Of a stretch of 64,000 nucleotides of DNA, positions 7,375 through 26,960 are shown one piece after another. Both the position numbers and the translations under genes were made by a program. The notes beneath the pieces were generated by a model. It worked only from the letters and a program-made list of their open reading frames with translations. It searched no databases and had not been told where the DNA came from. Source of the DNA: Bacilli bacterium (GTDB taxonomy: Bacteria; Bacillota_I; Bacilli_A; RF39; UBA660); NCBI GenBank assembly GCA_017525035.1, contig JAFXTH010000023.1, positions 115,687 to 179,686 on the forward strand. Direction: 5' to 3'. The number at the start of each line of letters is the position of its first letter. Position 1 is the stretch's first letter.

Positions 7375-7413
7375 TTTATAAAAAAAGTAGAAGTTAAATA
7401 ATTAACTTCTACT
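7375..7413 (-). terminator. Terminator after the 548-aa membrane protein gene
   Basis: Stem gtagaagtta / taacttctac overlapping the TAG stop, followed by a T-run on the minus strand. Confidence 0.5.
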
Positions 7414-9055
7414 CATCAGTTAAGTTTTCTTGTTCTTTTTCAGAATCTTTTATAACAATTGTGTATACCTTACCTCTTATTGTTAAATCTAGGTATATCT
7501 TTTCAGCTTTCTTTAGTTTTTCTCTTACTTCAATAAATACATATTTTCCTGTTGGGAAAGGTGTAACATTAGTTAACTCTACCCTGTTATTATACTCTTT
7601 TCCATTAATAGTAAATCTGATACTTCCATATTTAGATATTATATCATTATTAACATAACCTTTTCCTAAAGTTTCATAGTCATAAGTAATATCATAATCT
7701 ATTCTCATAAGTGTAAGTTCAAACTTAGAATTTGTATTTGCTTTTATTGCCTTTATAAGAGTACTACATCCACCATTTTGACACTTTACTGTGTTGTAAT
7801 AGAATGAATCAGCTATTTTAATATTATTTATTCTTATTTTAGTATCTCCAAGAACACTTCCTTTAAATGAAATGTACTCACCTAAATTTTTAGTATCTAC
7901 TGTTGTCGTTTCTTTATCGAATGTCTTAGGAGATAATCTTACTGTCCTATATTCGTATTCAACTTTTCCATCAACAAATTTTGCATCATATAAATATTTT
8001 AATTTTAAATCAGACTTATAATATTCATTTTTTATTTCGTAGATAAGAACGAAATCTCTTGTTTCACGAGCATTTAATTTTTGACTATAGTAATTAACTC
8101 CAAATTCATTTAATATATTACTCATTTTAAATGTAGGCGTTACGCTTGATACTCCATCATAGCTTACTATTGCATTATCTGTATATATCGTTATTGGGCC
8201 ATTAGATACATTTGTATATCTAAGTTTTAATATTAAATAGAAATTATTACTGCTTAATGCATCTCCAACCGCATTAGCGTTTGTTTTATAACTATCTAAT
8301 ACTTCTATTTTTAATGATCCAGTATCGAAAGCTTGTCCTTCTTTATATATCTTTTCAACTGACATTAACTTTCTAATTCCAAAAAGTACTAATACTAATA
8401 AAAGTATTCCACCAACAAATGTAAACATTGCCTTGTTTTCTTTGAAAGCATAACCAATGTATCTCATTCTCTTTCTTGCTTTTGCTTTAATATCTTCACT
8501 GTCTAGTTGAAAATCTAAAGCAAACTCTTGGTTGTCTTCTTCTTCAATTCCAAGATCTAATAAATCTTTTTTGAAATCGAACTTTTTAATATCAAATCCA
8601 ATAGCACGTACAAAAGTACCCAGTATAATTGGTATTTGCAGTGCACAATATGTATAGAGCACGTCTCGCAAAATTTTTACAATTCTTAAACTTGGAACTT
8701 CAAATTGTATGTTGTATAAAAATCCTGATAGTATGAATATTAGAACTAATCCAACAACATACATAATCATTACGTATATATAAAATAATTTAGGTTTCTT
8801 CTTATATATCATTAAGGCCATTATGACGCCTGCCACAATCAAAACAAATACTAATGCAAACGAGAAAACACCATCAATATATTTAGCTGATATATCATCT
8901 ATGCTAGTAATCTTTTGATTGTTTGATATATATTCATTAAAGAATTCAACAATACTATAAAATTTTAATAATAGAAATATTGCACCAATTAATAAAACAC
9001 CATGAATTATTCTAAAGTGTCTTACTAAAAATGCATATGGCTTCTTTAGTATCAT
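7409..9055 (-). CDS. Polytopic membrane protein with large C-terminal extracytoplasmic domain, function unknown
   Basis: ORF track trimmed to the ATG at 9055 (MILKKPYAF) after AGGGTGA. There are several N-terminal hydrophobic segments, and the C-terminal half is beta-rich. Confidence 0.55.
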   Translation of the reverse strand: MILKKPYAFLVRHFRIIHGVLLIGAIFLLLKFYSIVEFFNEYISNNQKITSIDDISAKYIDGVFSFALVFVLIVAGVIMALMIYKKKPKLFYIYVMIMYVVGLVLIFILSGFLYNIQFEVPSLRIVKILRDVLYTYCALQIPIILGTFVRAIGFDIKKFDFKKDLLDLGIEEEDNQEFALDFQLDSEDIKAKARKRMRYIGYAFKENKAMFTFVGGILLLVLVLFGIRKLMSVEKIYKEGQAFDTGSLKIEVLDSYKTNANAVGDALSSNNFYLILKLRYTNVSNGPITIYTDNAIVSYDGVSSVTPTFKMSNILNEFGVNYYSQKLNARETRDFVLIYEIKNEYYKSDLKLKYLYDAKFVDGKVEYEYRTVRLSPKTFDKETTTVDTKNLGEYISFKGSVLGDTKIRINNIKIADSFYYNTVKCQNGGCSTLIKAIKANTNSKFELTLMRIDYDITYDYETLGKGYVNNDIISKYGSIRFTINGKEYNNRVELTNVTPFPTGKYVFIEVREKLKKAEKIYLDLTIRGKVYTIVIKDSEKEQENLTDE

Positions 9056-9139
9056 CACAATCACCCTATGATAATAGTATACATTATTTTGGATTCATTA
9101 TAAAGTATAAACTAAAAAAAAGAAGAAATAATTCTTCTT

Positions 9140-10360
9140 TTAATCTAAATGATATATATCATAAATATTATCACTATTATATTTAAATTCATTCTTTTGA
9201 ACTAGTGGTATATCACCATACTTATTATGTCTATATATCTTATCTTCTTTTATATAATAAATGTCTTCATTTACGACGATAACTTCTCTTGCATCTTCTG
9301 CATCAAATAAGTAAATAGGATTATTTAAGTATTTCTTATAAACCTTATAATACACATCGCCCTTTTTGTATACTGCATAATTTGTTCCTAAATAAATTTC
9401 ATCATAATCGATGGAATCATATGCTGTTGTATCAGGTGTAAAATAAACATTATTCTCAGCAAGCTCATAATTAGATACTTTTGTTTCTTTACCTTTTACG
9501 TAAACTATTGATTCAGAATCTGTCGAAACGACTTCAACCTCATCACTGTAAGGATCTATTGTATATTGTTTCATATCACTCTTATCAAATAAATATAATT
9601 TATCATCATAAACACCATTTATGTATGTTTGTTTAGAAAATCCAGGTACTATTATTTCTTTCTTTAAATCTGTCTCTAAATCATATTTAATGTAAGTATT
9701 AAGTGTGGCACTTTCAGTTAATTTAGGTATTACATAATATTTACCTACTCTCATACCAATTGTATTTTTATAATTATCTAAAGTTGAAAATACAAAATAA
9801 TCACTATTGAATTGTTTATGAAGTACTACTCTTTTATAGTCATAAATAATAAATAACTCATTTTCTTGCAAATAATCTTTATTTACGTTAATACCACTGT
9901 CACTTCTAACATTACTTTTCTCCTGATATTTTTTATAATCGAAATTAGGAAGTTTTGCTAAGAATTCATTAATATTATGTTGCTGCATTGTATAAGAATA
10001 TGTGTATATTTTATCTTCTACTTTACAAAGAGGTTCTGTGTCTTGCTCTTTGTTTAAAAATTCAAGTGATATACAATAAATTTCTCCATCACTGTAAGTT
10101 ATTACATCTTTTACTATTTCTCTTTGTTTGTTATAGTTGTTCTTTACATCAAAGACAAATGAATTGTTTTTAGAATCAGTGACTCTTATTAAATAAGTAT
10201 CATTATTTTCGTATGAATAATCTTCTTCTATTTTATAAGAATCTGATTCATTTTCTACATTATATTGAACACTATGTTCTTTTTTTATAAAGTTAATACC
10301 AACTTGGTATATTAACAATAGTACCAAAACTATTACTGAAAATGAAATAGCTTTTTTCAT
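9140..10360 (-). CDS. N-terminally anchored extracytoplasmic protein, function unknown
   Basis: Signal/anchor MKKAISFSVIVLVLLLIY. Repeated Tyr/Asp-rich beta-strand-like segments are present. No catalytic motif recognised. Confidence 0.55.
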   Translation of the reverse strand: MKKAISFSVIVLVLLLIYQVGINFIKKEHSVQYNVENESDSYKIEEDYSYENNDTYLIRVTDSKNNSFVFDVKNNYNKQREIVKDVITYSDGEIYCISLEFLNKEQDTEPLCKVEDKIYTYSYTMQQHNINEFLAKLPNFDYKKYQEKSNVRSDSGINVNKDYLQENELFIIYDYKRVVLHKQFNSDYFVFSTLDNYKNTIGMRVGKYYVIPKLTESATLNTYIKYDLETDLKKEIIVPGFSKQTYINGVYDDKLYLFDKSDMKQYTIDPYSDEVEVVSTDSESIVYVKGKETKVSNYELAENNVYFTPDTTAYDSIDYDEIYLGTNYAVYKKGDVYYKVYKKYLNNPIYLFDAEDAREVIVVNEDIYYIKEDKIYRHNKYGDIPLVQKNEFKYNSDNIYDIYHLD

Positions 10361-10378: not shown

Positions 10379-11299
10379 CTATATATTTAACAAAAATATT
10401 TCAAATAATATATTTCCTCTTCCTAGACCACTTTTTGATTTGTAGTCTATATCAGCTAAAGTATTAAGAAAAGATAACAACTTTTTTGTACTATAGTTAT
10501 TACAATTTTCTAGTGCCATTGTAACAGCATAAGGTTTAACTCCCAAAATAGTAGCTATGTCTTGTGGTTTGTATTTCTTTTCGGTTAATATTTTAACGCT
10601 GTAAAGCATTCTTATTTGGCTTGAAATACTAGCAATAATATTAACTGAATCCTTTTCTTTTTTAGATATTCTTGTATACAAATCAAATGCTCTATCTTTA
10701 TTTTTTGCTGCTATAGCATTTACTAAATCATAAATATCTTCATCATAATCCCTTATTGCTATATTATCTATATCTTCTTTAGTTATATTCTTGTCGTTTT
10801 CACTCATTTTATAACATTTAATTTTATCAAGTTCATTTAAAATCTTCTCATTGTTATTTAAACAATAATCTGCTAGATACTTAATAGTTCTACTATCCAT
10901 TACGTAACCTTCCAAATTATTTTTAATTAATAATTCTGAAGATACTTTATTACTTAATAATTCAATATTACATTTAAATATATCTTTCTTATCATCAATA
11001 ACATCATTTATCATTACAAAGTAATTATCACTAGGATTCATTACATATTTCTTTAGTTCATCTAATCCTTTATCTTTATCTTTAGATAAGAAAGAGCAAT
11101 TATTATAAACAATTAATTTAATATTAGATAAAAAATTATATGTATTTAATTCTTCTAATACTGTACTTATAGATACATCTGGATAATCATATTTTATTAT
11201 CTCAAAGTCTTTTAATTTGTTATCTTTAATAATTTTATTAATATAATTATCTATGGTAACTTTGTCATCCGAAACAATAATATAATTATTAGTCATCAT
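10379..11299 (-). CDS. holA: DNA polymerase III delta subunit
   Basis: The C-terminal half aligns by eye with B. subtilis HolA: DIYDLVNAIAAKNKDRAFDLY..., IASISSQIRMLY..., LGVKPYAV..., DYKSKSG...ILFEIFLL. Confidence 0.75.
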   Translation of the reverse strand: MMTNNYIIVSDDKVTIDNYINKIIKDNKLKDFEIIKYDYPDVSISTVLEELNTYNFLSNIKLIVYNNCSFLSKDKDKGLDELKKYVMNPSDNYFVMINDVIDDKKDIFKCNIELLSNKVSSELLIKNNLEGYVMDSRTIKYLADYCLNNNEKILNELDKIKCYKMSENDKNITKEDIDNIAIRDYDEDIYDLVNAIAAKNKDRAFDLYTRISKKEKDSVNIIASISSQIRMLYSVKILTEKKYKPQDIATILGVKPYAVTMALENCNNYSTKKLLSFLNTLADIDYKSKSGLGRGNILFEIFLLNI

Positions 11300-11735
11300 T
11301 ATCCTTTGATTCTCTTGGATATTTCCTCTTTAATCTCATCATGTTTTCGCTTATATTTGTTTCGACTTCTTCCATAGCTGCTTTATCAATATTGGAGAAT
11401 ACAATTACTTCTTTTACAGTATCTATAATTACTTTTCCCCAAATTATTCTTGTTCTTATATTCATATCATTGTACATATATGGCATTACGGAATCAAGTG
11501 CATATCCAAAACATACTCTTTTTCTTCCGATTAATATTCTTTGGTTTGTAATAGCAATTACACCAGTTGAAAAGAAATCGTAAAATTTGGCATTTTTTTG
11601 CCCAACAAAAACATACTTAACAACTTCATCTGGATTTAAATGTCTTTCAACTATGTCGCTGTTAGCTTTTAATCTCCATGCGACTGTTAAAGGATATTTC
11701 TTTTTAAATTTTTTTGCTTCAGAATAAATGCTCAT
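11289..11735 (-). CDS. Bacterial PH-domain-like protein
   Basis: Pattern VKYVFVGQKN...GVIAITNQRILIGRK resembles bPH/YokE-like domains. RBS GAGGTGA is present. Its stop overlaps the holA start. Confidence 0.4.
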   Translation of the reverse strand: MSIYSEAKKFKKKYPLTVAWRLKANSDIVERHLNPDEVVKYVFVGQKNAKFYDFFSTGVIAITNQRILIGRKRVCFGYALDSVMPYMYNDMNIRTRIIWGKVIIDTVKEVIVFSNIDKAAMEEVETNISENMMRLKRKYPRESKDNDD

Positions 11736-11748
11736 ATAATCACCTCAT

Positions 11749-12369
11749 TTATAGAATATTACTTATAATATCATCTATTAATTTGATTAATCCATCAAAT
11801 AAACCTACTATGAAATCTATTATTATTTCAAAGAAGTTTTTAGATCTTTCCTCTTTTTCTTCTTCTTTCTTTGGTTCAACTTTTTCTTCTTCGTTTTTCC
11901 AAATACCTAACTTTTTCTCCTTAGCATATGAAAGAGCTGATTTCAATTCTTTTGCGTGTAAATAGTCATCATTTATATAAACAACTTTAGCATATCCTTG
12001 TTTTACTAAGTCTTCCTGCAATAGAACACCATCAATATATACCCACGCTTGAATTCTTCCATATTTATCTTCTCTTTCAATGTTAGGTTCATATTCTATT
12101 TTGATTTTTTTTGCACTTTTAAGTGCATCACATACATAATCTTTTACGAAACTATCATTTACTTCGTTTGTCTTTTCATCTATTATGTTTTCTGCTGCTT
12201 CTATACCCAAAAACTTTACTTTTATTTCAGTAAGTCTTAACATAAATCGAGCAGAATTACCATCTACGCAGTTACTTAACGATACTTCGTCAGAAGTAGA
12301 TTGGCTAGCCATTACATTAATAGGTAAAATGAGTAACATTATCATTAATATTATGGTTAACTTTTTCAT
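11749..12369 (-). CDS. Secreted thermonuclease (staphylococcal nuclease, SNase family)
   Basis: Signal peptide MKKLTIILMIMLLILPINVMA. SNase-like blocks VKFLGIEAAE, YGRIQAWVYIDGVLLQEDLVKQGYAKV and AKEKKLGIW. The start is trimmed to the ATG at 12369 after AGAGGTGAG. Confidence 0.75.
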   Translation of the reverse strand: MKKLTIILMIMLLILPINVMASQSTSDEVSLSNCVDGNSARFMLRLTEIKVKFLGIEAAENIIDEKTNEVNDSFVKDYVCDALKSAKKIKIEYEPNIEREDKYGRIQAWVYIDGVLLQEDLVKQGYAKVVYINDDYLHAKELKSALSYAKEKKLGIWKNEEEKVEPKKEEEKEERSKNFFEIIIDFIVGLFDGLIKLIDDIISNIL

Positions 12370-12392
12370 AATCTCACCTCTATTCATTTACA

Positions 12393-15149
12393 TTAGTCAT
12401 CGAAGAAATCATCAAAGAATTTTTCTTCAACTTCTTTGTCATCAAGTTTTATTGTACTAGTAGGCTTGAATCCACTTTGAGCCATTTTTTGTTGTTCGTA
12501 AGTCACTGTACTTTCTGTTGGCGCTTCATAATAGTTATTTGAAACAGTTTGAACTGGCTCTGTTGCAACCATTATTGGCTCTTCTTTTTCTATATTATTA
12601 ATCTGATTATTAGCTTCTATTTCTAGTCTTCTATTAATTTCGTCAGCTTTGTTTTCAACAAACTCTGCTTCTTTATCAATTAAATCGTTAGATAACTTTT
12701 CATTAACTTTTCTTTCAATGTCTTCATTTGACAAAATTAATTCTTCATCTAATAATTCAACATTATCTCTTTTATTGTATTCACTGATAGACTTTGGTTT
12801 TTGATGATTTGCAAGTCTATTGTATACTTTCTCTTCGTATGTTGGAACATTCTTCTTGCTCTCATATACTGGTGTATAATCATCATATTTTGGCACACTA
12901 GGTGTATAACTATCATATAAATCATCATATATATTTTTATCAACTGGAATAATATCTTCTTCATCATCTGCTTGTGGTTTGATATTAAAATTACTCAAAT
13001 CTATTGATGAAGGATAATCATATTCTTCTTTATTCTTAGTGTTATTGTATGTATTATCAACACTATTGTCAGTATGATTATAATTGTTAACAGTAATATT
13101 ATTAACTACATTTTCTTTTGGCGCACTTGCAGCTTGTGCTTTTTGTGCCGCTTTCTCAGCTTTCTTCTTCTTTGCCTCTTCCTCTTCTCTTTCAATTTCA
13201 GCAAGTTTTTCATCAATTTTCTTAACTAAATCATTAACTGAAATTTCAGGTTGCTTTTTAGGCATAGAATCTTCAAAACTTGAAAAATCCTTACTACCAG
13301 TTGATGGTCTTTCTCCACCAAAAGATGATCCAAGAATTGTTGGTTTGCTTCCACCACTTACTTCGCTTGATGAACTGCTATTACTACTGCTGCTACTTCC
13401 ACCACCAATGCTTGCCATCATTTCATTTATTTTTTGATTTTTCTTTTCTTTAACATATTCTCTTATATCAAATATTTGAACTGGTCTTTTTTCTCTTACT
13501 GGGTAATCAATTTTAGGAGATTTTTCATTTCCCCAGTCTATTTTAAAATCAGGCACAAATGATGTCTTGAATGGACTTTTTCTCATTCTTAACAAGATAT
13601 GGTCGAATTGTTTCATTCTTTGTAAGTCACTTACTGTAACTAGTGGTGTTGAAGCTGTCTTATCATCTTTTTTAGACTTCTTCTCTCCACAAAGTTTACT
13701 TATTTCTTCTAGAGCTGCTAACTCTGTTGAAATTAAGTAAATAATGTTACCATAGTTACCTTTGATAGTTTCTGCATCGTCCTTACCATAAACTTTATTT
13801 AATTGTGCAAAGTTTTGGATAATCATTGTAAATCTTATTTGTCTTGAACGTGCTGCTGTAATCATTGTTGTAACGTCTTTTAATGGTGGCATGTTAGCAA
13901 ACTCATCTAGTAAGAAGTTTGTTCTACATGGTAATTTACCACCGTGTGCTTGAGCAACATCAATTAATGTTTCATATACTTGTTTAATAAAAATTGTTGC
14001 AAGTGAGTGATATGTTTTCTTTTCGTCTTGAATGATTATAAATACTGCAGTTGGTTGAGTACCAATTGAGTCAAGTTTAAAATCACTATAACTTAACATT
14101 TCAGATAAGTTTTCACGTGATGCGAACAATTTTACTTTTTGTTTAAATACAGAAATAATACCACCTTTTGTTTCACTAGGTGCCATTACTGTACCACTGG
14201 CATTAACGTATGCTGCACTAGATGGATCTTTAGTATTAAAGTATTCCTTAATATAAGTTGATCCACCGAATTTATCTTCACCAACAGTAGCAGTCATATT
14301 AATACTGTTGATATTTATCTTATCTTCTGTTGTATCTTCAAACATTGCAAGTGCAATACCAGAGAAATAGTCAGCTGCTGTTTTTTCCCAGAATGGATCG
14401 CTATTTGCATTTGTTTCATCATACAAAATATTTAATGCAAGGTCATCAAGTAACTCAATTGCTTTATCTTGATTTCCTTCTTTATAAAGTCTATATGGTA
14501 ATTCAAGTGGGTTCCAAGTATTACCATTTTGAGGATTACGGAAGTTTAATAACAAGATATTGTATCCTTTTTCTTTTAATAATCCTCCAGCTTTTTCAAA
14601 AATTTCACCTTTAGGGTCAGTAACAACTACAGACTCACCCTTTTTAGCTAAAACTTTAATTGTTGGTAAAATAGTATCTTGTGTTTTACCTGATCCAGTA
14701 GCACCCATAACTAATGTATGATACTCACCATTATCAACCCATAATTCTTTACCATTACTGATTAATGGTACTCCAGCATATTCTGATTTAGGATCAGATG
14801 CTACAACTCTTTTGATATTTGTATCATTTTTAATATCTTTTGGTTTAGACCAATCACTATAACCACCAGTGTTTCCATCACCAATTTTGAATCCTACTCC
14901 ACTTTCAAATTCAAAGAAATATGATTTAACACTTAAGAGTAATCCAAGAAGTGCAATGAAATATAAAATCAATGTAGCAGCAATTTTATCAGGATAAAAA
15001 GCTTCTATAGGATTTAAACCATAGAACTTACCTGTTGAAGATAGTACTGGAATATTAACTACTCCTAGTGCTACTATATATAATAAAAATATTGCAAATA
15101 TTAAGAATATTTTAATATCTCTTGCTGTTGCAACGAACTTAAATTTCAT
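12393..15149 (-). CDS. virD4: Type IV coupling protein (VirD4/TraG family) with about 345-aa low-complexity C-terminal tail
   Basis: Two N-terminal TM segments. Walker A VMGATGSGKTQ, then VVTDPKGEI and NTWNPLE. Walker B FLLDEFANM, then RSRQIRFTMIIQNFAQLNKVYG. The start is trimmed to the ATG at 15149. Confidence 0.9.
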   Translation of the reverse strand: MKFKFVATARDIKIFLIFAIFLLYIVALGVVNIPVLSSTGKFYGLNPIEAFYPDKIAATLILYFIALLGLLLSVKSYFFEFESGVGFKIGDGNTGGYSDWSKPKDIKNDTNIKRVVASDPKSEYAGVPLISNGKELWVDNGEYHTLVMGATGSGKTQDTILPTIKVLAKKGESVVVTDPKGEIFEKAGGLLKEKGYNILLLNFRNPQNGNTWNPLELPYRLYKEGNQDKAIELLDDLALNILYDETNANSDPFWEKTAADYFSGIALAMFEDTTEDKININSINMTATVGEDKFGGSTYIKEYFNTKDPSSAAYVNASGTVMAPSETKGGIISVFKQKVKLFASRENLSEMLSYSDFKLDSIGTQPTAVFIIIQDEKKTYHSLATIFIKQVYETLIDVAQAHGGKLPCRTNFLLDEFANMPPLKDVTTMITAARSRQIRFTMIIQNFAQLNKVYGKDDAETIKGNYGNIIYLISTELAALEEISKLCGEKKSKKDDKTASTPLVTVSDLQRMKQFDHILLRMRKSPFKTSFVPDFKIDWGNEKSPKIDYPVREKRPVQIFDIREYVKEKKNQKINEMMASIGGGSSSSSNSSSSSEVSGGSKPTILGSSFGGERPSTGSKDFSSFEDSMPKKQPEISVNDLVKKIDEKLAEIEREEEEAKKKKAEKAAQKAQAASAPKENVVNNITVNNYNHTDNSVDNTYNNTKNKEEYDYPSSIDLSNFNIKPQADDEEDIIPVDKNIYDDLYDSYTPSVPKYDDYTPVYESKKNVPTYEEKVYNRLANHQKPKSISEYNKRDNVELLDEELILSNEDIERKVNEKLSNDLIDKEAEFVENKADEINRRLEIEANNQINNIEKEEPIMVATEPVQTVSNNYYEAPTESTVTYEQQKMAQSGFKPTSTIKLDDKEVEEKFFDDFFDD

Positions 15150-15216
15150 AATAAACACTTCCTTAAACTCTTTTAATCATACCATAAAAGTCTTTATTTT
15201 TCAATAAAATGGCCTA

Positions 15217-15942
15217 TTATAGTCTGTTAATATTTTTCTTTTTAATAGACAATGAATAACTTATAAATGAGATACATAAAATTACTAATAATACAATTAA
15301 AAGTATAGTTATTTTAATCTTGCTGTTTTCTTCCTCTTGTGTATCACTAGATTTCTCTTTTGTATTAAGAGTTATATATAGTTTTTTACCCTTATTAGAT
15401 TTTTTTACGTTCCATGTATACTCATTTTCACCAGTTTTTTCAGCATTTGTCGTTAATACTTCATATTCCGTTTTTACCTTTATGTTAATATCATCTAATA
15501 TTTCATAATCGTTAAATATATTTTCTGGAATTTTCCCTTCTATAGTAAGCTTATTATCATCATAGAAAACTGAAAAAGCTGAAATATATTCATTTGCTAA
15601 CGTTGAATTTGCATAACTTTCAAACGTAAAGTCATCTGTTAGTATAAGCGCAATTTCATTATTGTCAACTATTCCATCAATTTTATAGTATTTGCAGTTT
15701 TCTGTGCATGCCTCATTAGAAAATACCATATCATAGTCTGAATAGATATTTTCACTACCTTTATACATAGTTACATAGTCTTGAAAACTCTTTCCATCTT
15801 CTTTTTTTTGATTTGCTCTTTCTATATCAGTTTCTTGAGCATCAAATGTTTCAATTATTTTATTATCTTTTATTTCAATTGTGTAATTAACAGTACATCC
15901 TGTCATAAAAATTGCTAATAATATTAATATTATTTTTTTCAT
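15217..15942 (-). CDS. Lipoprotein with C-terminal TM anchor, T4SS-associated, function unknown
   Basis: Lipobox LAIFMTGC and C-terminal hydrophobic segment ILLIVLLVILCISFISY. The start is trimmed to the ATG at 15942 after AGGTGA. Confidence 0.55.
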   Translation of the reverse strand: MKKIILILLAIFMTGCTVNYTIEIKDNKIIETFDAQETDIERANQKKEDGKSFQDYVTMYKGSENIYSDYDMVFSNEACTENCKYYKIDGIVDNNEIALILTDDFTFESYANSTLANEYISAFSVFYDDNKLTIEGKIPENIFNDYEILDDINIKVKTEYEVLTTNAEKTGENEYTWNVKKSNKGKKLYITLNTKEKSSDTQEEENSKIKITILLIVLLVILCISFISYSLSIKKKNINRL

Positions 15943-15950
15943 ATTATCAC

Positions 15951-18900
15951 CTACCAAGATAGACCATTTACATTACTTGAATTAGAATAGTAACCATCAA
16001 GTAATACTACTACGTAAGTTTTACTTCCGTTTTTCAATTCATTAAAGCTTATTTTTCTTGTCTTTCTTCCATTTTCTCCAATAGTAATACTACTATCATC
16101 TTTTCCAACAATCAACATAGCATGCTGTCCATCACCATTATTGTCGGAATATAGCACATCTCCTGGTTTTATTGCTGCTATTGCTTCATCTTTAGTAGAT
16201 ATTGAAGTTTCTGCACTATTGCTCATTACTTTAAATGTTCCAGAAGTTTGAATCCTTACTGCTCCTGGATAATAATTTGTATTAGTAAATGCTCCTGTCA
16301 TTGATCTAGCACCCGCAGATCCTTGACTACACATATTCATTCCACCATTGCAGAAAGACCATCTTACAAAGTTTGCACAATTAAGTCCTAATCTAACTGG
16401 TGGAGCGCATGTATCACATGTTCCTCCAACTTCTCCCCATCTACTATTAACACCTAACTTACCGTTTAAGTCTGCTTGTCCGATTTTTCCTCCAGAATGG
16501 TCATATGGATAAGTATAGCCACCAGTCATATCCATTGTACATTGCATTAGGCCAACACCTGCTGCAACAACACCGGCTCTTGTTCCATAACCAGCACTGT
16601 TTACTTTATCACCAATACACTTATTTAAATCTTCAATTGTATATCCCTTTGCTGCTAAAGCTTGCTTAAGTGTTGTATTAAGTGGAGATCCACCTATTAC
16701 GTCAGTGAATCCATTACCATCGAAATCACTATTACCACTACCAGTTGGTGTACTATCATTACTTTTATCTTTATCAAGTGAGTCTACTTTTTTACATTTT
16801 CCTATTGGTAATGAACTTCTTAATACCCTTAATTGAGCTGTTGGAAAGAATAGTCTTATTAAAGCATCTTGATCATATCCCATTGCTCCAAAGTAAGTTA
16901 ATCCATATTGGCTAGCTCCTCTTCCATGTCCACCATAAACATGATATGACCAACCATATTCTGTAACATATTGTTGAGTAGCTTCATCATATTTTTCTCT
17001 TGTGTATGTTTCTGTTTTCCAACATGGATATTCACTTGATTTACTAGGTGTTGTTTGAGCTGGATCTCCACCAGCCCATGATGGCTCAGTTGTCCAATCA
17101 GGTGCGTATCTAATATTCTTTCTGTTAATTATTTCATCATGTGGTCTTGAATCATTATTTCTAAAACATGGACAATACAAATATCTACTATTTGGGTCAA
17201 TGAATTCTTTTCCTGTTTTAGCTTTATATGCTTGTACATCTATTGGAAGGCTTTGTTGTCCTTCTGGTAAGTAATACCATTTCCCGCCATCTAATGTATT
17301 CTTAACAGGACAAAATGCATCATATTCTGTATGCCATATTTTATCACTTTGATAATCAGTTATAACAATTCCTCTTGTTGCTTCAACTGCTGCTGCTAGT
17401 CTTGGATACTTTTCTTTTGAATACTCTGGATTATAGTTTTGTCTATTTGAACTATTTTCAATTTCTCCTCTTCCATCAAGTCCAACATTTGCAATCGCCT
17501 CAGTTCTAGCAAGAATTGCAAAAGCCTTTAACGCTTCGTCATTCCCACTATTATATTCTGCTAACAATACTCCACCAAGATATTGATCTTCAAAATCAAT
17601 TTCAATGTGTTCAGGAAGACCAAATCTACTTTGTTTTTCTGGCGGATTATATACTCTTATATTTTCAATTTCATTATCAATTATCTTGTGAACATCATCT
17701 GGATAGTCACAGCTTTTTCTAATTGATAAATAATATGAGTAAATGTATTCTGCTGTACTTAAAATTTTTGGAAGGCTTTGTTCATATAATTTATCTTCAT
17801 CTTCTGTGTTTGCGTCCTTATCATATAAGTAATCTTTAAGATATGTAAATAAGAAGCCATCTCTATTAACTAAATTCCAATAGAATACACCACCACTATT
17901 TGGATCTTTTTCATATTCAACAGATCCATCCTTTTTTGCATATGCAATATATTTTCCTTCATCAAGAGATAATGTATAAACATTTTCTGGCAATCTATTA
18001 TCCTTTTGTGGGGCATCAGTACATACATAATTTTTCTCAGCTTTTTTCCTATCGTTATATCCAGTAAACCAACGCAAAGGATTTAACCATTCCCACCACT
18101 GTAGTTCTTCAACTTCATCATCATTATTGGCATATTGTTCCATAGTTTTTTCACTGCCACATTTACCTTTATTTGTGTATGTTAAAATCTGCATTTTGGA
18201 AAGAAGCTCTGCTTGATCTCCCATACTATCAACGAACTTTTCCCATGTTACATATTCACCATCATATTTATAACATAATGGTTCACCACAAGACTCTCCG
18301 TCAGTAATTTCAGAACTTTTAATAGGATAAATAATCCCGTTATCTATTGGTGCAAGAAGTGTTGCTAATATTATATACTGATCAACTTCAAGTTTATATG
18401 TATTACTTGTTTTCTTTACTGCAGCAGAAATTTCTTCATATAATCCTGGATAAGTTGCAAATATGTTTGTACCTGCGTCTTCATATTTATAATCTTCTGA
18501 TTCTACTGTTCCACCATTTTCGTTAGAATATATTTGTGTATCTGCATCTTTAAAAAGTATTACTATTACTAACACTAATAGTATTATTACGATTATTGGT
18601 AATAGATGTAATACTAGGAAAAAGATTGCTCTTTTTTTTGCTTGTTCTTTTTCAATTTCAACGATAACATTTTTAATACCAGCTGCTGCACTATCACCTT
18701 TTTCATAGGCATCTATATACTTTTGTCCTTTTTCAGTATCCAGTGCTTTCTCAATGGCATCACCTTTACCAGGCATATAAGTATTAATTCCTTTTTTTAT
18801 TCCTTCTGCTGTTTTGTTTTTATTTTGCTCTGCTCTTTTCTTTTTTAGTCTACCACTAAGAGACTCGGCATTACGAGATTCTTGCGAACTTGCAACACCC

Positions 18901-19325
18901 CTAGAATTATTTTCACCTCTATAACCCAAGTTATTAAAGCCACTTTTTGATCTTCTACCAAAAAAATTTTGGCTATGTCCTTGTCCATTATTAGGTGCTG
19001 AATTTCCTAAGTTTCTTGGAGAGTTATCGCTAGCATTTCCCTTATTACTGTTTCTATTATTTCTATTAAAAAATTTGTTATTTCTATTTGTATCATTTTG
19101 TTGTACACTTTGATTTACTTGATCTATTCTATCATTTACTCTTCTTCGCATATTATCGTATGCATTATTATTGTCATTATTATTTTTAGCCGGTTCGTCC
19201 CTTACTGTTATGTTGGTAGTAGCTGTCATTGGGCTTTGAACTGCTCCTAGATCTTGGATTGCTCCTGGGTTTTGCATTCCTCCTTGATCTTGCGCACCGC
19301 CACTTGCTTGACCTCCTGTAGCCAT
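15951..19325 (-). CDS. Membrane-anchored bifunctional peptidoglycan hydrolase (SpoIID/LytB-like domain plus C-terminal NlpC/P60-like domain)
   Basis: Disordered N-terminal region of about 230 aa, then TM segment FFLVLHLLPIIVIILLVLVIVILF. SpoIID-like blocks ALKAFAILARTEAIANV, ATRGIVITDY and HGRGASQYGLTYFGAMGYD. NlpC/P60-like blocks GLNCANFVRWSF and GDGQHAMLIVG. Confidence 0.8.
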   Translation of the reverse strand: MATGGQASGGAQDQGGMQNPGAIQDLGAVQSPMTATTNITVRDEPAKNNNDNNNAYDNMRRRVNDRIDQVNQSVQQNDTNRNNKFFNRNNRNSNKGNASDNSPRNLGNSAPNNGQGHSQNFFGRRSKSGFNNLGYRGENNSRGVASSQESRNAESLSGRLKKKRAEQNKNKTAEGIKKGINTYMPGKGDAIEKALDTEKGQKYIDAYEKGDSAAAGIKNVIVEIEKEQAKKRAIFFLVLHLLPIIVIILLVLVIVILFKDADTQIYSNENGGTVESEDYKYEDAGTNIFATYPGLYEEISAAVKKTSNTYKLEVDQYIILATLLAPIDNGIIYPIKSSEITDGESCGEPLCYKYDGEYVTWEKFVDSMGDQAELLSKMQILTYTNKGKCGSEKTMEQYANNDDEVEELQWWEWLNPLRWFTGYNDRKKAEKNYVCTDAPQKDNRLPENVYTLSLDEGKYIAYAKKDGSVEYEKDPNSGGVFYWNLVNRDGFLFTYLKDYLYDKDANTEDEDKLYEQSLPKILSTAEYIYSYYLSIRKSCDYPDDVHKIIDNEIENIRVYNPPEKQSRFGLPEHIEIDFEDQYLGGVLLAEYNSGNDEALKAFAILARTEAIANVGLDGRGEIENSSNRQNYNPEYSKEKYPRLAAAVEATRGIVITDYQSDKIWHTEYDAFCPVKNTLDGGKWYYLPEGQQSLPIDVQAYKAKTGKEFIDPNSRYLYCPCFRNNDSRPHDEIINRKNIRYAPDWTTEPSWAGGDPAQTTPSKSSEYPCWKTETYTREKYDEATQQYVTEYGWSYHVYGGHGRGASQYGLTYFGAMGYDQDALIRLFFPTAQLRVLRSSLPIGKCKKVDSLDKDKSNDSTPTGSGNSDFDGNGFTDVIGGSPLNTTLKQALAAKGYTIEDLNKCIGDKVNSAGYGTRAGVVAAGVGLMQCTMDMTGGYTYPYDHSGGKIGQADLNGKLGVNSRWGEVGGTCDTCAPPVRLGLNCANFVRWSFCNGGMNMCSQGSAGARSMTGAFTNTNYYPGAVRIQTSGTFKVMSNSAETSISTKDEAIAAIKPGDVLYSDNNGDGQHAMLIVGKDDSSITIGENGRKTRKISFNELKNGSKTYVVVLLDGYYSNSSNVNGLSW

Positions 19326-19457: not shown

Positions 19458-21272
19458 TTATAGTCCTCCACCGCTACCGAATGAAGTTAATTCTTCAGGC
19501 GTAACTATTACGTTAATTCTCATTCTTCTGTGACCGCAGACAAATAACGCTTCACCTTGAGAATACTGCTTAATACTTTCTTTTTCATTATCATTTAAAT
19601 CAATTAATAAACCTAAATCTTCAGTAGCTTGTTTCTTAAGCCCCATTATCAAATAATAAGAAGCATTGTCGAATATTGCTTTACCTTGCATCAAAACTCC
19701 TGGTGCAGCAAAGTCACTTGGTTGTTGTGTAATGATAATAGTACCTGTGTTATATTTTCTTGCACGACGTTGAACTTGTGCTAAGAAATCAGCTCCTAGT
19801 GTATTATTATCTCCTAATAATACATGGGCTTCATCTACCATTAATACTGTATCGACTTCTTTATCAAGACATAGTCCCCATGCATACTTAAGTATATTGA
19901 AGAATAATGCATTCTTAATATTTTCTTCAGCATTCATCAACTCTTTAATATTGAATACGATAAAATCACTATTATGAGTTATTGTTGTATGTCCATCAAA
20001 GTAATATTTTAAATCTTTTGTCAACGGTCTAACTTTTAATTCAAGTTTTTCCATTATATCTCTTTCATGTGTATGATCAGTCATTGAAAGAAGTATTGCC
20101 TTAATAGTCTCATAAACATCTGAGAATGTTGGATAATCTTCTGGTGCAAAATCATAGAAATCTTTATCAAAATCTATTCCAAAACGTTTATATGTATCTT
20201 GCACTACTTCACTGAATATTGTTAATACATCTTCTTCAATTGATGGATCATAATATTTCATGAAAGCTTTTAAGAATTGTAATGTTCTTGTAAGAATTGT
20301 GTATCCAAGTCCTGACTTAATTTCTTCTTCATCAGCATCTACTACGATTTGTAAAGGGTTAATCATACCGAATTCTCCACCTTTACCTAAGTCAATAGTG
20401 TCTCCTCCAAAGTTCTTAGTCATTTCTTCAAGCTCGTTTTCTGGGTCAATTGCTACTATTTGACAACCATTTCTTATATGATTTCTTAATAGTAATTTAG
20501 CAGAAGTTGATTTTCCTGATCCTGAAGTACCTAACAAAATAAGGTTAGCATTGTTTCTGTTGTTTTCTTTTTTGATTTTGTATAGGAACTGGTTAAATAA
20601 GATAACACCTCCAGAGAAATCTACACCAAGAAGTGTTGATAATCCAGGATCTTTAACACTATCAAATATAAACGGATACATTGCTGCTATTGTAGTTGAA
20701 GGAATTGGTGTTCCAATTCTTTCTTCTATATCTTGTTTAGGGAAAATTGGAATAATTGATTTCAAAGCTTTTTCTTGCTCAAATCTCAATGCTACTCCTC
20801 TCATTTCCATAGCTTCTAAGTAACTTTTAACGTTAGTTTTTCTTAATTCTAGTTCTTCTTTAGTATCTGCCGTGATCATTATATGCATTTGGAAATCAAA
20901 TATTTTTGACTGGCTTGATGCAATCATAGTAACGAATGATTCAAGTGATTCATAGTCCATACGAATCTTTTCTTGCATTGTTCTATCACGTTCTTCTTGA
21001 TACTTTTGTTTTAATTCTGCAATTTGTTTATTTAACATTTTTGAAACAATTGAGAATGGTACAGGCACATGCTTAACTACTATCTTAATTCCTGGCATAC
21101 TAGTTAAGTTTGATAAATAACCTGGAGTAATAAATTTAGGATAAGATACAACCGTTAATATTGTTGCATACTTATCACTTATAAAGAAATCACTTGGATA
21201 AAATTGTAATCCTTTAGGTGCTAATTGCGCTTTAATATTAATATTACTCACTTTGAACCACCACCGTTTCAT
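19458..21272 (-). CDS. virB4: VirB4-family T4SS ATPase, C-terminal 604 aa (ATPase body)
   Basis: Walker A LLGTSGSGKST and Walker B VLMVDEAHVLL. The N-terminal part AQLAPKGLQFYPSDFFISDKYATILTVVSYP matches the mid-N-domain of Tn916 Orf16/TcpF-type VirB4. Confidence 0.9.
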   Translation of the reverse strand: MKRWWFKVSNINIKAQLAPKGLQFYPSDFFISDKYATILTVVSYPKFITPGYLSNLTSMPGIKIVVKHVPVPFSIVSKMLNKQIAELKQKYQEERDRTMQEKIRMDYESLESFVTMIASSQSKIFDFQMHIMITADTKEELELRKTNVKSYLEAMEMRGVALRFEQEKALKSIIPIFPKQDIEERIGTPIPSTTIAAMYPFIFDSVKDPGLSTLLGVDFSGGVILFNQFLYKIKKENNRNNANLILLGTSGSGKSTSAKLLLRNHIRNGCQIVAIDPENELEEMTKNFGGDTIDLGKGGEFGMINPLQIVVDADEEEIKSGLGYTILTRTLQFLKAFMKYYDPSIEEDVLTIFSEVVQDTYKRFGIDFDKDFYDFAPEDYPTFSDVYETIKAILLSMTDHTHERDIMEKLELKVRPLTKDLKYYFDGHTTITHNSDFIVFNIKELMNAEENIKNALFFNILKYAWGLCLDKEVDTVLMVDEAHVLLGDNNTLGADFLAQVQRRARKYNTGTIIITQQPSDFAAPGVLMQGKAIFDNASYYLIMGLKKQATEDLGLLIDLNDNEKESIKQYSQGEALFVCGHRRMRINVIVTPEELTSFGSGGGL

Positions 21273-21795
21273 ATGTCATTGTTTTACCACCATTTAAGAA
21301 GTTATCAAGTACAATTCTTAAATCTTCGTTTGTTGCTTGTTGCGCAGACAATCCTGCTGTGGCAAGTGAATTTATCAAATTACGAATTTTCTTTTGAATT
21401 TTTTCTGGATCTTTTTCTTTAAATAAAATGTAATATTCAGTATCAACAACATTGTTGTTAATAAATGCGTTACCTTTATTGATATCTTCAGCAATTAGCT
21501 TTCTTATTGCTGGAGATTGTTCTTGGTTATATAGCAAATGAAGTTGTGACATATAAATTGATATATCAACTGGTCTATCTGCTACTACTAACCAGAATTC
21601 ATAATCTATCGAATTATAAAAATTCCTTAAATTAAATAATATATTTTGTTGTGAGTCTTCATCAAGAATAAAGATATTTCTTGGAGCTATTTTAACTCCT
21701 GTTACCTTTTCTTGATTATTCAATATAATTGCTCCACCACTTATACCTTTTACTGGAATCCAGTCTTCAGTATATTTACTTCTTGCTGTCGCCAT
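21244..21795 (-). CDS. VirB4 N-terminal domain encoded as a separate 183-aa ORF (split gene or frameshift)
   Basis: WIPVKGISGGAIILNNQEKVTGVKIAPRNIFILDEDSQQNILFNLRNFYNSIDYEFWLVV resembles the extreme N-terminus of Gram-positive VirB4 homologues. It overlaps the next ORF by 29 nt in a different frame. Confidence 0.55.
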   Translation of the reverse strand: MATARSKYTEDWIPVKGISGGAIILNNQEKVTGVKIAPRNIFILDEDSQQNILFNLRNFYNSIDYEFWLVVADRPVDISIYMSQLHLLYNQEQSPAIRKLIAEDINKGNAFINNNVVDTEYYILFKEKDPEKIQKKIRNLINSLATAGLSAQQATNEDLRIVLDNFLNGGKTMTYETVVVQSE

Positions 21796-26929: not shown

Positions 26930-26960
26930 ATCACTAACCCACTCTCATTATTCTTTTTAT

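What the first reader, a model, noticed from the sequence alone, without database searches (positions are those of the whole stretch)
10379..15149. Coupling protein, secreted nuclease and PH-domain gene are translationally chained to holA, where comE genes usually sit
The gene junctions show a single chained unit:
- The virD4-like stop (12393) is followed within 25 nt by the thermonuclease start.
- The nuclease stop and the PH-domain start are 14 nt apart.
- The PH-domain stop overlaps the holA start (GATAATGATGACTAA).
- I see no terminator between the hydrolase gene at 19.3 kb and holA.

An essential replisome gene therefore appears co-transcribed with T4SS genes. That argues against a recently acquired mobile element. 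In Bacillus and many other Firmicutes the DNA-uptake genes comEA/comEB/comEC lie immediately upstream of holA. Here that position holds a DNA-pumping coupling ATPase and a secreted DNase. This pairing is reminiscent of competence nucleases such as NucA or EndA working next to a DNA channel. This is an inference, not a demonstrated function.
Basis: partly seen in the sequence, partly recalled or inferred. Interest (0 to 1): 0.7.

Follow-up and report, generated by a model that had tools for sequence, protein, structure and literature searches.

The report
holA nested behind a domesticated T4SS
The tightly chained genes are real and anciently conserved in an uncultured gut Bacilli lineage. They are a chromosomal, relaxase-less secretion machine joined to an unrelated envelope gene module, into which the replication gene holA was inserted; there is no evidence for a replacement DNA-uptake system.

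Summary
**Observation: confirmed.**
- VirD4 stop to the likely SNase-like start is 23 nt.
- SNase-like to bPH is 13 nt.
- bPH and holA overlap by 8-11 nt.
- There is no convincing minus-strand terminator from about 38.5 kb down to 7414-7385.

**Conservation.** The order VirD4, SNase-like, (PedC-like), bPH, holA, p406, p551 holds in every relative sampled, down to 48% HolA identity.

**"Not a recent mobile element": strongly supported.**
- VirB4 and the VirD4 ATPase domain stay 85-99% identical while HolA falls to about 50%.
- Synonymous sites are near saturation.
- No relaxase, integrase or att repeats were found in the 64 kb.
- In one relative the T4SS is split into two chromosomal loci.

**"ComE replaced by a DNA-uptake device": not supported.**
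- SNase-like, PedC-like, bPH and p406 form a separate module. It is widespread without any T4SS or holA.
- holA sits inside this module in only one monophyletic clade.
- In that clade the SNase homologue has lost the canonical Ca2+/catalytic residues D21, R35 and D40.
- A coupling protein points to export.
- ComEC status could not be tested.

**Best reading.** This is a domesticated Gram-positive conjugation-type T4SS with a Tad-like module, comparable to the Patescibacteria and archaeal Ced cases. holA is a passenger in a long read-through operon.

The parts
7385..7414 (-). First convincing intrinsic terminator downstream of the chain (13-bp stem plus T-run), overlapping the p551 stop
7409..9064 (-). 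p551: polytopic membrane protein with an extracytoplasmic C-terminal part. No family hit. Conserved after p406 in the holA clade and its sister clade
9140..10360 (-). p406: N-terminal TM anchor plus a beta-propeller-like ectodomain. It is the anchor gene of the (SNase)-(PedC)-bPH-p406 module
10379..11299 (-). holA (DNA polymerase III delta subunit), nested between bPH and p406. Its start overlaps the bPH stop
11289..11735 (-). bPH_3 bacterial PH-domain protein with no obvious transmembrane segment on reading the sequence. It is the near-universal upstream partner of p406
11749..12369 (-). SNase-fold protein with a Sec-type signal peptide and a hydrophobic C-terminal tail. The canonical active-site residues D21, R35 and D40 are replaced (N, K, E)
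12393..15158 (-). VirD4-type coupling protein (CD1115 family). The ATPase domain is about aa 90-545, followed by a variable low-complexity linker and an invariant C-terminal KFFDDFFDD motif
15217..15957 (-). Predicted lipoprotein. It is variable and is absent or replaced in some relatives
15951..19325 (-). Large cell-wall hydrolase candidate in the VirB1/TrsG position. The SpoIID/LytB domain has a Pfam hit. A C-terminal NlpC/P60-like region is my reading of the sequence only
19458..21272 (-). VirB4 ATPase (TrsE-like), 85-94% identical across the clade
21244..21804 (-). TrsD-like protein. It corresponds to the N-terminal domain of VirB4 encoded as a separate gene, and this split is conserved in relatives
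21776..22102 (-). VirB3/PrgI/TrsC-like small membrane protein, assigned by position and size. No family hit
22121..24190 (-). VirB6/TrbL-like polytopic membrane protein
24279..25463 (-). 394-aa protein of unknown family. Its position is conserved in the cluster
25550..25891 (-). VirB2-like T4SS_pilin candidate (PF18895 at 22.8 bits, below the 26.6 cut-off)
25916..25945 (-). Perfect sigma-70 consensus (TTGACA-18-TATAAT) in the gap upstream of the pilin-like gene. It is a candidate promoter for an 18.5-kb transcript ending at 7414-7385
25952..29402 (-). Four genes with no confident family: a 325-aa and a 142-aa gene, then two genes of about 260-300 aa that follow the ATPase in the TadB/TadC position (27712-28503 and 28503-29402)
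29442..31349 (-). VirB11/TadA/CpaF-like secretion ATPase (T2SSE), below all NCBIfam cut-offs
31378..32319 (-). CpaB/RcpC-like (SAF-domain type) pilus-assembly protein (weak hits)
32481..37985 (-). DUF5411 protein, a 1419-aa protein with no family hit (possible surface protein or adhesin) and a 231-aa protein. These form the probable upstream end of the cluster

Best explanation
The chained genes are the tail of a long, co-directional chromosomal gene array built from three things of different origin.

**(1) A domesticated T4SS.** It is a Gram-positive conjugation-type (MPF_FATA-like) T4SS with a Tad-like ATPase and pilus module. Its parts are:
- CpaB-like protein, VirB11/TadA-like ATPase, pilin-like protein;
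- VirB6, VirB3, TrsD and VirB4;
- a cell-wall hydrolase and a lipoprotein;
- the VirD4 coupling protein.

It is inherited vertically in an uncultured, low-GC gut lineage that NCBI labels 'Bacilli bacterium' or 'uncultured Clostridium sp.'. No relaxase was found in the window, and its ATPases evolve much more slowly than HolA.

**(2) An older, T4SS-independent envelope module.** It consists of an SNase-fold secreted protein, an optional PedC-like thiol-disulfide oxidoreductase, a bPH protein, a membrane-anchored beta-propeller protein (p406) and p551.

**(3) holA.** In one clade it was inserted between bPH and p406 and has stayed there, its start overlapping the bPH stop.

**How it most likely works (inferred).**
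- holA is transcribed by read-through from upstream promoters. Candidates are the consensus promoter at 25945-25916 and an extended -10 site at 15204-15176.
- holA translation is coupled to that of bPH.
- This reflects operon compaction in a compact genome, not a functional partnership between the clamp-loader subunit and secretion.
- The T4SS itself most likely acts as a contact-dependent exporter. The coupling protein would recruit an unknown substrate, possibly through its invariant C-terminal KFFDDFFDD tail.
- In this clade the SNase-fold protein is more likely a nucleic-acid- or ligand-binding surface protein, or a weak nuclease, than a competence DNase.
For: **Junctions and terminator-free run:**

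**Conserved order.** VirD4, SNase, (PedC), bPH, holA, p406, p551 is found in relatives from 85% down to 48% HolA identity. Gaps are conserved too:
- VirD4 to SNase: 4-28 nt, apart from one locus (L004) where the longest-ORF start gives a spurious overlap.
- bPH/holA: overlap in 9 of 12 loci.
- holA to p406: 0-32 nt.

**Separate module.**
- PedC-bPH-p406 lies without holA or a T4SS in L009.
- SNase-PedC-bPH-p406 lies without VirD4 or holA in L015 and L036-38.
- SNase-bPH-p406 occurs in L020-23.
- An NJ tree of 69 p406 sequences places all holA-nested loci in one clade. Its sister (L010, L017) has VirD4 within 10 kb but no nested holA.

**Domestication.**
- VirB4 is 85-94% and the VirD4 ATPase domain 86-99% identical. 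By contrast HolA is 49-85%, p406 35-71% and the hydrolase 40-66%.
- Identity at four-fold synonymous sites for VirB4/VirD4 against distant relatives is 48-67%. Chance is 44%, and other genes are similar. This indicates old divergence with strong constraint, not recent transfer.
- The top 120 VirB4 clusters are all at least 88% identical and lie on contigs up to 1.32 Mb.
- Among 1.84 billion representatives, one full-length cluster matches at 71%. The next full-length ones are at 44% and 40%.
- The best plasmid-borne VirB4 and VirD4 are about 30-31% identical.
- No relaxase or integrase family hit occurs on any sizeable ORF of the 64 kb. No att-like flanking repeats were found.
- In one genome the T4SS is split. 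The CpaB-to-VirB4 block is followed by tig, pgm and other housekeeping genes (L082). About 33 kb away on the same contig lies topA, hydrolase, VirD4, SNase, PedC, holA (L004).

**Ancestry.** Bacillus conjugative plasmids carry the same kit. Examples are relaxase, VirD4(CD1115), TrbL, PrgI, a 227-aa gene and VirB4 together with a SAF protein, a T2SS/T4SS ATPase and two membrane proteins. A related plasmid also carries a thermonuclease.

**SNase active site.** It is degenerate only in the holA/T4SS clade.

**VirD4 tail.** The C-terminal motif is present in 15 of 15 VirD4 sequences of the clade and its sister clade, and in no other ORF.
Against: - Co-transcription is inferred from sequence only. 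Internal promoters inside coding DNA cannot be excluded in 28% GC sequence, and there is a weak hairpin after p406.
- Only 10-kb flanks of relatives were visible. A relaxase, an oriT or comE genes could lie elsewhere in these genomes.
- The export direction and the substrate are inferred from the presence of a coupling protein, not shown.
- The NJ tree is a quick distance tree without support values.
- Loss of SNase activity is predicted from residue identity, not measured. R87, and in most members E43, are retained.
- It cannot be excluded that nesting holA in a highly expressed operon has regulatory meaning.
Confidence: 0.65

Rival explanations
1. First reader's idea. The T4SS with its coupling ATPase and the adjacent secreted nuclease is a DNA-uptake (competence-like) machine. 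It functionally replaces ComEA/ComEC at the position upstream of holA.
For: - Domesticated conjugation machines that import DNA do exist, namely the archaeal Ced/Ted systems (PMC9905601).
- The T4SS here is chromosomal, lacks a relaxase within 64 kb and is under strong constraint.
- No comE-like gene was seen in the window or in the sampled flanks.
- From my own knowledge, comEA-comEB-comEC lie directly upstream of holA in Bacillus subtilis.
Against: - SNase and bPH belong to a module that exists without any T4SS, so the pairing of nuclease with channel is not a conserved functional unit outside this clade.
- holA's position is a derived insertion between bPH and p406. It is not an ancestral comE-holA site.
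- The SNase homologue of this clade lacks D21, R35 and D40.
- The Ced/Ted importers comprise VirB4-, VirB6- and VirB2-like proteins, with no coupling protein listed. From my own knowledge, H. pylori ComB also lacks a coupling protein. Here VirD4 is among the most conserved genes.
- No competence-family nuclease (EndA or NucA type) is present.
Confidence: 0.1
2. The T4SS still moves DNA outwards. This could be conjugation-like chromosomal transfer or DNA release, as in Mycoplasma chromosomal transfer or gonococcal DNA secretion. It would use a relaxase encoded elsewhere or an unrecognised nicking enzyme.
For: - A complete set of ATPases is present (VirB4, VirD4, VirB11-like), together with a hydrolase, VirB6 and a pilin-like protein.
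- VirB4's best NCBIfam match is the Mycoplasma ICE VirB4 family.
- VirD4 passes the cut-off of a conjugal coupling-protein family.
- Only part of each genome was visible.
Against: - No relaxase family hit was found on any ORF in 64 kb, nor in the gene tables of relatives.
- The Patescibacteria precedent was interpreted as co-option for non-conjugative roles (PMC12102498).
Confidence: 0.17
3. The cluster is an integrated conjugative element, or its recent remnant, that happened to land next to holA.
For: - The gene kit is typical of Bacillus conjugative plasmids.
- A tRNA-Cys gene lies just beyond the cluster end at 7228-7301.
Against: - The same order is kept down to 48% HolA identity with saturated synonymous sites.
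- There is no integrase, relaxase or att repeat, and no duplicated tRNA end.
- The hydrolase and lipoprotein between the ATPase genes diverge like chromosomal genes.
- The T4SS is split by housekeeping genes in one genome.
- GC content is similar to the flanks.
Confidence: 0.03

Closest known systems
Chromosomal, relaxase-less MPF_FATA-like T4SS of Patescibacteria (Quinonero-Coronel et al. 2025, PMC12102498)
   Same: - Derived from monoderm conjugation systems.
- Chromosomal, with no relaxase nearby.
- VirB4 with a separate TrsD-like N-domain gene, plus VirB3, VirB6 and VirB2-like pilin candidates.
- Located next to replication genes (dnaA/dnaN there, holA here).
- Interpreted there as co-opted for a non-conjugative role.
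   Different: - The host here is a Bacillota (Bacilli) gut lineage, not Patescibacteria.
- The coupling protein is adjacent to the cluster and extremely conserved. In Patescibacteria only 148 of 5,713 T4CP genes lie near virB4.
- A Tad-like ATPase/CpaB module is contiguous with the T4SS.
- Whether this VirB4 belongs to the Patescibacteria VirB4 clade was not tested.
Archaeal Ced/Ted DNA-import systems (Beltran et al. 2023, PMC9905601)
   Same: A conjugation-derived machine encoded on the chromosome and used for a cellular purpose. It comprises VirB4-, VirB6- and VirB2-like parts.
   Different: - Ced/Ted comprise VirB4-, VirB6- and VirB2-like proteins, with no coupling protein listed. Import has been shown experimentally for Ced.
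- Here a coupling protein, a VirB11-like ATPase and a cell-wall hydrolase are present, and the direction of transport is unknown.
Conjugation gene sets of Bacillus plasmids (pBMB64 NZ_CP004872; B. velezensis NZ_CP019039; pLS20 family, PMC8708921)
   Same: - Same parts list: VirD4 of the CD1115 family, TrbL/VirB6, PrgI/VirB3, a TrsD-sized gene and VirB4.
- An NlpC/P60-type hydrolase.
- A SAF/CpaB-like protein, a T2SS/T4SS ATPase and two membrane proteins.
- SNase-like thermonucleases are frequent plasmid passengers (398 PLSDB records).
   Different: - Only about 30% identity.
- The plasmids carry relaxases (MobP3, MobQ), ssb, topB and ArdC, and their SNases keep the canonical DGDT..R..DTPE site.
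- Here there is no relaxase, the location is chromosomal, inheritance is vertical and the SNase site is degenerate.
Helicobacter pylori ComB T4SS (own knowledge)
   Same: A T4SS dedicated to a chromosomal function related to DNA.
   Different: - ComB has no VirD4 coupling protein and works together with ComEC.
- It is a diderm system.
- No sequence relationship was tested here.
Bacillus subtilis comEA-comEB-comEC-holA locus (own knowledge)
   Same: holA lies at the distal end of a co-directional cluster.
   Different: Here the genes upstream of holA are bPH and SNase-like, which belong to a conserved envelope module. No ComE-family domain is present.

Membership tests
DNA polymerase III delta subunit (HolA, TIGR01128) | Whole-protein score above the curated equivalog cut-off, with both N- and C-terminal delta domains | tested here: met
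   TIGR01128 scores 184.1 bits against a cut-off of 80. PF06144 and PF21694 are both above cut-off.
Type IV coupling protein (VirD4, CD1115 family) | Score above the NCBIfam cut-off. T4SS-DNA_transf and TraG-D_C domains. Walker A/B motifs. N-terminal TM helices | tested here: met
   NF045973 scores 294.8 against 250. PF02534 scores 199.9 bits and PF12696 82.9 bits. GATGSGKT and LLDEF motifs and two N-terminal hydrophobic helices are visible in the sequence.
VirB4 ATPase | Full-length match to a VirB4 equivalog model | tested here: inconclusive
   Pfam P-loop_TraG and AAA_10 are above cut-off. The NCBIfam VirB4 models are below cut-off (357 against 590; 181 against 325). The likely reason is that the N-domain and the VirB3-like part are separate genes. 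This split is known for pGO1 TrsD/TrsE.
Integrative conjugative element or conjugative plasmid | Relaxase gene associated with the T4SS | tested here: not met
   No relaxase family hit was found on any ORF of 90 aa or more in the 64-kb window, nor in the gene tables of relatives. The rest of the genome was not visible.
Integrative conjugative element or conjugative plasmid | Integrase or recombinase and flanking att direct repeats | tested here: not met
   There are no integrase hits. Only low-complexity AT-rich repeats were found, and there is no second copy of the tRNA-Cys end.
Integrative conjugative element or conjugative plasmid | Signs of horizontal mobility: patchy presence, or low synonymous divergence relative to the host genes | tested here: not met
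   The cluster is present in all sampled relatives. Four-fold site identity is near chance, as for the neighbouring genes.
Staphylococcal (thermo)nuclease, active enzyme | SNase fold (PF00565) | tested here: met
   49.2 bits against a cut-off of 21. The match to S. aureus nuclease structures has E = 1e-16.
Staphylococcal (thermo)nuclease, active enzyme | Catalytic and Ca2+ residues D21, R35, D40, T41, E43 and R87 | tested here: not met
   The window protein has N, K, E, A, E and R at these positions. Across the holA clade, D21 is N, E, T or D; R35 is always K; D40 is E, Q or D. Outgroup and plasmid SNases keep D/R/D/T/E/R.
Competence DNA-uptake apparatus (ComEA/ComEC or ComB type) | ComEC channel or ComEA receptor present. 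For the ComB type, a T4SS without a coupling protein | not testable with these tools
   No ComE-family domain occurs in the window or in the visible flanks. Whole genomes could not be scanned. A coupling protein is present, unlike ComB (own knowledge).
Domesticated chromosomal T4SS (Patescibacteria-type) | Chromosomal location, vertical inheritance and no associated relaxase | tested here: met
   Contigs reach 1.27-1.32 Mb. Co-divergence is shown. No relaxase was found.
Domesticated chromosomal T4SS (Patescibacteria-type) | VirB4 falls within the Patescibacteria VirB4 clade | not tested
   No reference set was available. The nearest full-length 50%-cluster representatives are 71%, 44% and 40% identical.
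Domesticated chromosomal T4SS (Patescibacteria-type) | VirB2-like pilin (PF18895) | tested here: inconclusive
   22.8 bits, below the cut-off of 26.6.
Bacterial PH domain (bPH_3) | Pfam PF14470 above cut-off | tested here: met
   34 bits against a cut-off of 23.

The most novel reading that the evidence does not exclude
A prevalent uncultured gut Bacilli lineage has turned a conjugation-type T4SS with a Tad-like pilus into a core, vertically inherited organelle. Its ATPases are more conserved than the replisome subunit HolA. It would serve an obligatory cell-to-cell function analogous to the Patescibacteria T4SS or the archaeal Ced system, possibly acquisition of DNA or nucleotides from neighbouring cells. 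In that case its hard-wiring into the holA operon reflects constitutive, growth-linked expression.
Probability: 0.2. Interest if true: 0.8.

Novelty: new variant of a known kind. Interest (0 to 1): 0.55.

Why it matters
Domesticated conjugation machines are known from hyperthermophilic archaea (Ced/Ted) and have been proposed for Patescibacteria. A third, independent case in a common human-gut Bacillota lineage would make such co-option look like a general route.

Three features would make this case experimentally attractive:
- ATPases that are 85-99% identical across species whose HolA is only about 50% identical;
- a coupling protein with an invariant C-terminal motif, which could be used as bait for its binding partner;
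- a system that persists when split into two chromosomal loci.

The result also shows why gene adjacency in compact genomes is weak evidence for function. Two of the four 'chained' genes belong to an unrelated module.

Tried and rejected
- **Genome-collection scan with HolA:** gave one locus only. The cap then prevented any genome-wide search for comE genes or relaxases.
- **Metagenome scan with the 29-sequence p406 alignment:** It worked with the 13 distant members.
- **Taxon:** cluster look-ups gave no names. The only labels are 'uncultured Clostridium sp.' and 'Bacilli bacterium'. My early guess of order RF39 is unsupported, and sporulation genes in relative L081 (spoVA, sigma factor) argue against it.
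- **Rfam:** only three tRNAs, with no T-box or riboswitch.
- **PDB sequence searches:** no hits for bPH, the hydrolase or the 394-aa protein.
- **p406 structure:** the AlphaFold model is confident (pLDDT 92.6). Its matches are only generic beta-propellers with TM-score about 0.3, so no specific function follows.
- **p406 against plasmids:** no match.
- **Literature:** searches for RF39 with T4SS, and for comEC with holA, found nothing relevant.
- **Recent HGT of the T4SS:** considered as an explanation for the high ATPase identity. Rejected because synonymous sites are near saturation and the genes lying between the ATPases diverge normally.
- **VirB4 split as a frameshift pseudogene:** rejected because the 108/183/597-aa arrangement is conserved in relatives and is known from pGO1-type systems.

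Full report
**1. What is in the sequence**

The window has 28% GC, and almost all its genes are on the minus strand. In transcription order, region 15158 to 7409 encodes:
- a VirD4-type coupling protein (12393-15158; NCBIfam conju_CD1115 at 295 bits against a cut-off of 250);
- an SNase-fold protein (11749-12369);
- a bPH_3 protein (11289-11735);
- holA (10379-11299; TIGR01128 at 184 bits against a cut-off of 80);
- two membrane proteins with no family hit, p406 (9140-10360) and p551 (7409-9064).

- 23 nt from the VirD4 stop to the SNase ATG that has a ribosome-binding site;
- 13 nt from SNase to bPH;
- an 8-11 nt overlap between bPH and holA;
- 18 nt from holA to p406.

The consensus scan finds no minus-strand terminator from about 38.5 kb down to a 13-bp stem with T-run at 7414-7385. 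My own scan adds only a weak AT-rich hairpin after p406. Tight spacing is the local norm: by my count, about half of same-strand junctions in the window are 30 nt or less. The spacing alone is therefore not remarkable.

**2. The larger cluster**

Upstream of VirD4, in order, lie:
- a lipoprotein;
- a 1124-aa SpoIID-domain hydrolase;
- VirB4, with a separate TrsD-like N-domain gene and a VirB3-sized membrane protein;
- a TrbL/VirB6-like protein;
- a 394-aa protein of unknown family;
- a T4SS_pilin-like gene;
- four further genes of unknown family;
- a VirB11/TadA-like ATPase;
- a CpaB-like protein;
- a DUF5411 protein;
- a 1419-aa protein with no family hit.

The three-gene VirB3/TrsD/VirB4 layout is not a frameshift. 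It recurs in relatives and is described for pGO1-type systems and for Patescibacteria (PMC12102498).

Bacillus conjugative plasmids carry the same kit at about 30% identity, but with relaxases. No relaxase or integrase family hit was found on any sizeable ORF of the 64 kb. No att-like repeats flank the cluster. The flanks are housekeeping genes: cysS, relA, tRNAs, typA and others.

**3. Relatives: the chain is old**

HolA homologues form a series from 100% down to 48% identity. Every context I opened keeps the order VirD4, SNase, (PedC-like), bPH, holA, about 405 aa, about 550 aa. This covers relatives at 85, 61, 54, 51, 51 and 48% HolA identity, plus others reached through p406 or VirB4. Gap sizes are also similar.

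Identity to the window proteins differs sharply by gene:

| Protein | Identity to window (%) |
|---|---|
| VirB4 | 85-94 |
| VirD4 ATPase domain | 86-99 |
| HolA | 49-85 |
| p406 | 35-71 |
| Hydrolase | 40-66 |
| Lipoprotein | 31-67 |

Recent horizontal spread does not explain the high ATPase identity. Four-fold synonymous sites in VirB4/VirD4 are 48-67% identical to distant relatives. That is close to the chance value of 44% and similar to other genes. The genes lying between the two ATPases also diverge normally.

Further points on distribution:
- The top 120 VirB4 clusters are all at least 88% identical. Some sit on contigs of 1.27-1.32 Mb, and two carry the NCBI label 'Bacilli bacterium'.
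- In a library clustered at 50% identity, one full-length representative matches at 71%. The next full-length ones are at 44% and 40%.
- In one Hadza-gut genome the system is split. The CpaB-to-VirB4 block is followed by tig, pgm, yebC and gpsA. About 33 kb away on the same contig lie topA, the hydrolase, VirD4, SNase, PedC and holA.

All this fits a domesticated, vertically inherited T4SS.

**4. The genes next to holA are not T4SS genes**

I searched with p406, the gene downstream of holA. I then scanned metagenomes with an alignment of its distant members, which gave 65 loci. I labelled the ORFs with locally built HMMs.

- The pair bPH then p406 is nearly universal in these loci.
- A PedC-like thioredoxin is usually upstream of the pair.
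- An SNase gene is upstream in at least two other clades (L015 and L036-38; L020-23, L029, L031).
- Those loci have no VirD4 within 10 kb and no holA.
- In an NJ tree of 69 p406 sequences, all holA-nested loci form one clade. Its sister (L010, L016, L017) has VirD4 within 10 kb upstream of the module where sequence is available, but no nested holA. In L010, dnaG and rpoD lie between them.

So holA was inserted into a pre-existing (SNase)-(PedC)-bPH-p406-(p551) module in one lineage. In that lineage the T4SS array ends directly in front of the module. This removes the positional argument that a T4SS sits 'where comE usually sits'.

The p406 model is confident (pLDDT 92.6) and shows a TM anchor plus a beta-propeller-like ectodomain. 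Its structural matches are generic, so the function of the module remains unknown.

**5. The 'secreted nuclease'**

The protein has a Sec-type signal peptide and the SNase fold. I aligned it to S. aureus nuclease. Plasmid SNases and the outgroup loci L036-38 keep all of D21, R35, D40, T41, E43 and R87, and L015 differs only at D40. In the holA/T4SS clade:
- position 21 is N, E, T or D;
- position 35 is always K;
- position 40 is E, Q or D;
- positions 41 and 42 vary;
- R87 is retained in all members and E43 in most.

From my own recollection of the classic SNase mutagenesis work, substitutions at these positions lower kcat by orders of magnitude. The protein is still under selection, since its length and signal peptide are conserved. 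It is more likely a binding protein or a weak nuclease than a competence DNase.

SNase homologues are also common passengers on Gram-positive plasmids: 398 PLSDB records, and among the putative establishment genes of pLS20-family plasmids (PMC8708921).

**6. Mechanism**

*Shown:* gene content, order, junctions, conservation, the selection pattern, and the absence of mobility genes in the visible DNA.

*Inferred:*
- holA is expressed by read-through. Candidate promoters are a perfect TTGACA-18-TATAAT at 25945-25916 and an extended -10 site at 15204-15176. Translation would be coupled to bPH.
- The T4SS acts as a contact-dependent translocator. Its coupling protein would select a substrate, possibly through the invariant C-terminal KFFDDFFDD motif. 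That motif is present in 15 of 15 VirD4 sequences of the clade and its sister, and in no other ORF.

I consider export more likely than import, for two reasons:
- Coupling proteins serve substrate delivery in known systems.
- The Ced/Ted importers comprise VirB4-, VirB6- and VirB2-like parts, with no coupling protein listed (PMC9905601). From my own knowledge, H. pylori ComB also lacks one.

DNA uptake is not excluded.

**7. Comparison and novelty**

The closest analogue is the chromosomal, relaxase-less MPF_FATA-like T4SS of Patescibacteria, which is also found near replication genes (PMC12102498). The closest homologues with known function are the conjugation systems of Bacillus plasmids.

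I found no description of this system in a Bacillota gut lineage, but my literature search was limited. I rate it a new variant of a known kind.

The finding as written is partly right. The observation and the 'not mobile' inference hold. The comE-replacement and competence-nuclease reading does not.

**8. Limits**

- Only 10-kb flanks of relatives could be read.
- Whole-genome presence of comE genes and relaxases is untested.
- Transcription is inferred from sequence.
- The tree is a quick NJ tree without support values.
- The taxon is known only from depositor labels.

Noticed in passing
window 12393-12440 (VirD4 C-terminus); also L001-L008, L010, L014, L017, L018, L025, L027: The extreme C-terminus of VirD4 is an invariant KFFDDFFDD motif preceded by FKPTxTIKLDD, after a variable low-complexity linker of about 300-400 aa. 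It occurs in no other ORF and is absent from a Bacillus plasmid VirD4. It is a possible docking motif for a partner.
   Followed up: partly
window 25916-25945 (- strand): A perfect sigma-70 consensus (TTGACA-18-TATAAT) lies in the 60-nt gap upstream of the pilin-like gene. A second site matching 11 of 12 positions lies at 27707-27679.
   Followed up: no
window about 9110-9141 (- strand): An AT-rich hairpin (AAAAGAAGAA-TTAT-TTCTTCTTTT) with a T-run lies directly after the p406 stop. The tool scan missed it because the stem has only 2 GC pairs. The 57-84 nt gap between p406 and p551 is conserved in relatives, so this could be a partial terminator or attenuator.
   Followed up: partly
L004 and L082 (same 183-kb Hadza gut contig): In this relative the T4SS is split into two chromosomal loci about 33 kb apart. 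VirB4 is followed by tig, pgm, yebC and gpsA, while the hydrolase is preceded by topA.
   Followed up: yes
L081/L082 about 18600-21500: Sporulation genes (spoVAC, spoVAD, spoVAEB, a sigma factor and a STAS protein) lie near the T4SS in a relative. The lineage is therefore probably spore-forming, which argues against my early guess of order RF39.
   Followed up: no
window 31392-31480: A tandem 6/12-nt repeat (TTGTAT...) lies at the 3' end of the CpaB-like gene, giving a low-complexity C-terminus.
   Followed up: no
window 1430-3502; L002, L007, L010, L014: A C39-peptidase ABC exporter (bacteriocin-type) recurs within 10 kb of the cluster in several relatives, although the flanks are otherwise rearranged.
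   Followed up: no
L007 4534-5679: A 381-aa protein with an N_methyl (type IV pilin-like) signal replaces the lipoprotein between the hydrolase and VirD4.
   Followed up: no
window 42558-43085: A PedC-like (DUF6568) thioredoxin gene lies 30 kb from the chain in this genome. In many relatives a PedC-like gene sits between SNase and bPH.
   Followed up: partly
L009, L046, L052-L055, L062, L065, L071, L073: In many T4SS-less lineages a 529-aa gene lies directly upstream of PedC-bPH-p406. In L009 it has two ABC_tran domains with ABC_tran_Xtn, i.e. ABC-F type. The window has a similar 531-aa gene elsewhere, at 58792-60387.
   Followed up: no
window 7228-7301: A tRNA-Cys gene lies between the end of the cluster and cysS, bracketed by terminator-like hairpins. 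No duplicated tRNA end was found at the other side of the cluster.
   Followed up: yes
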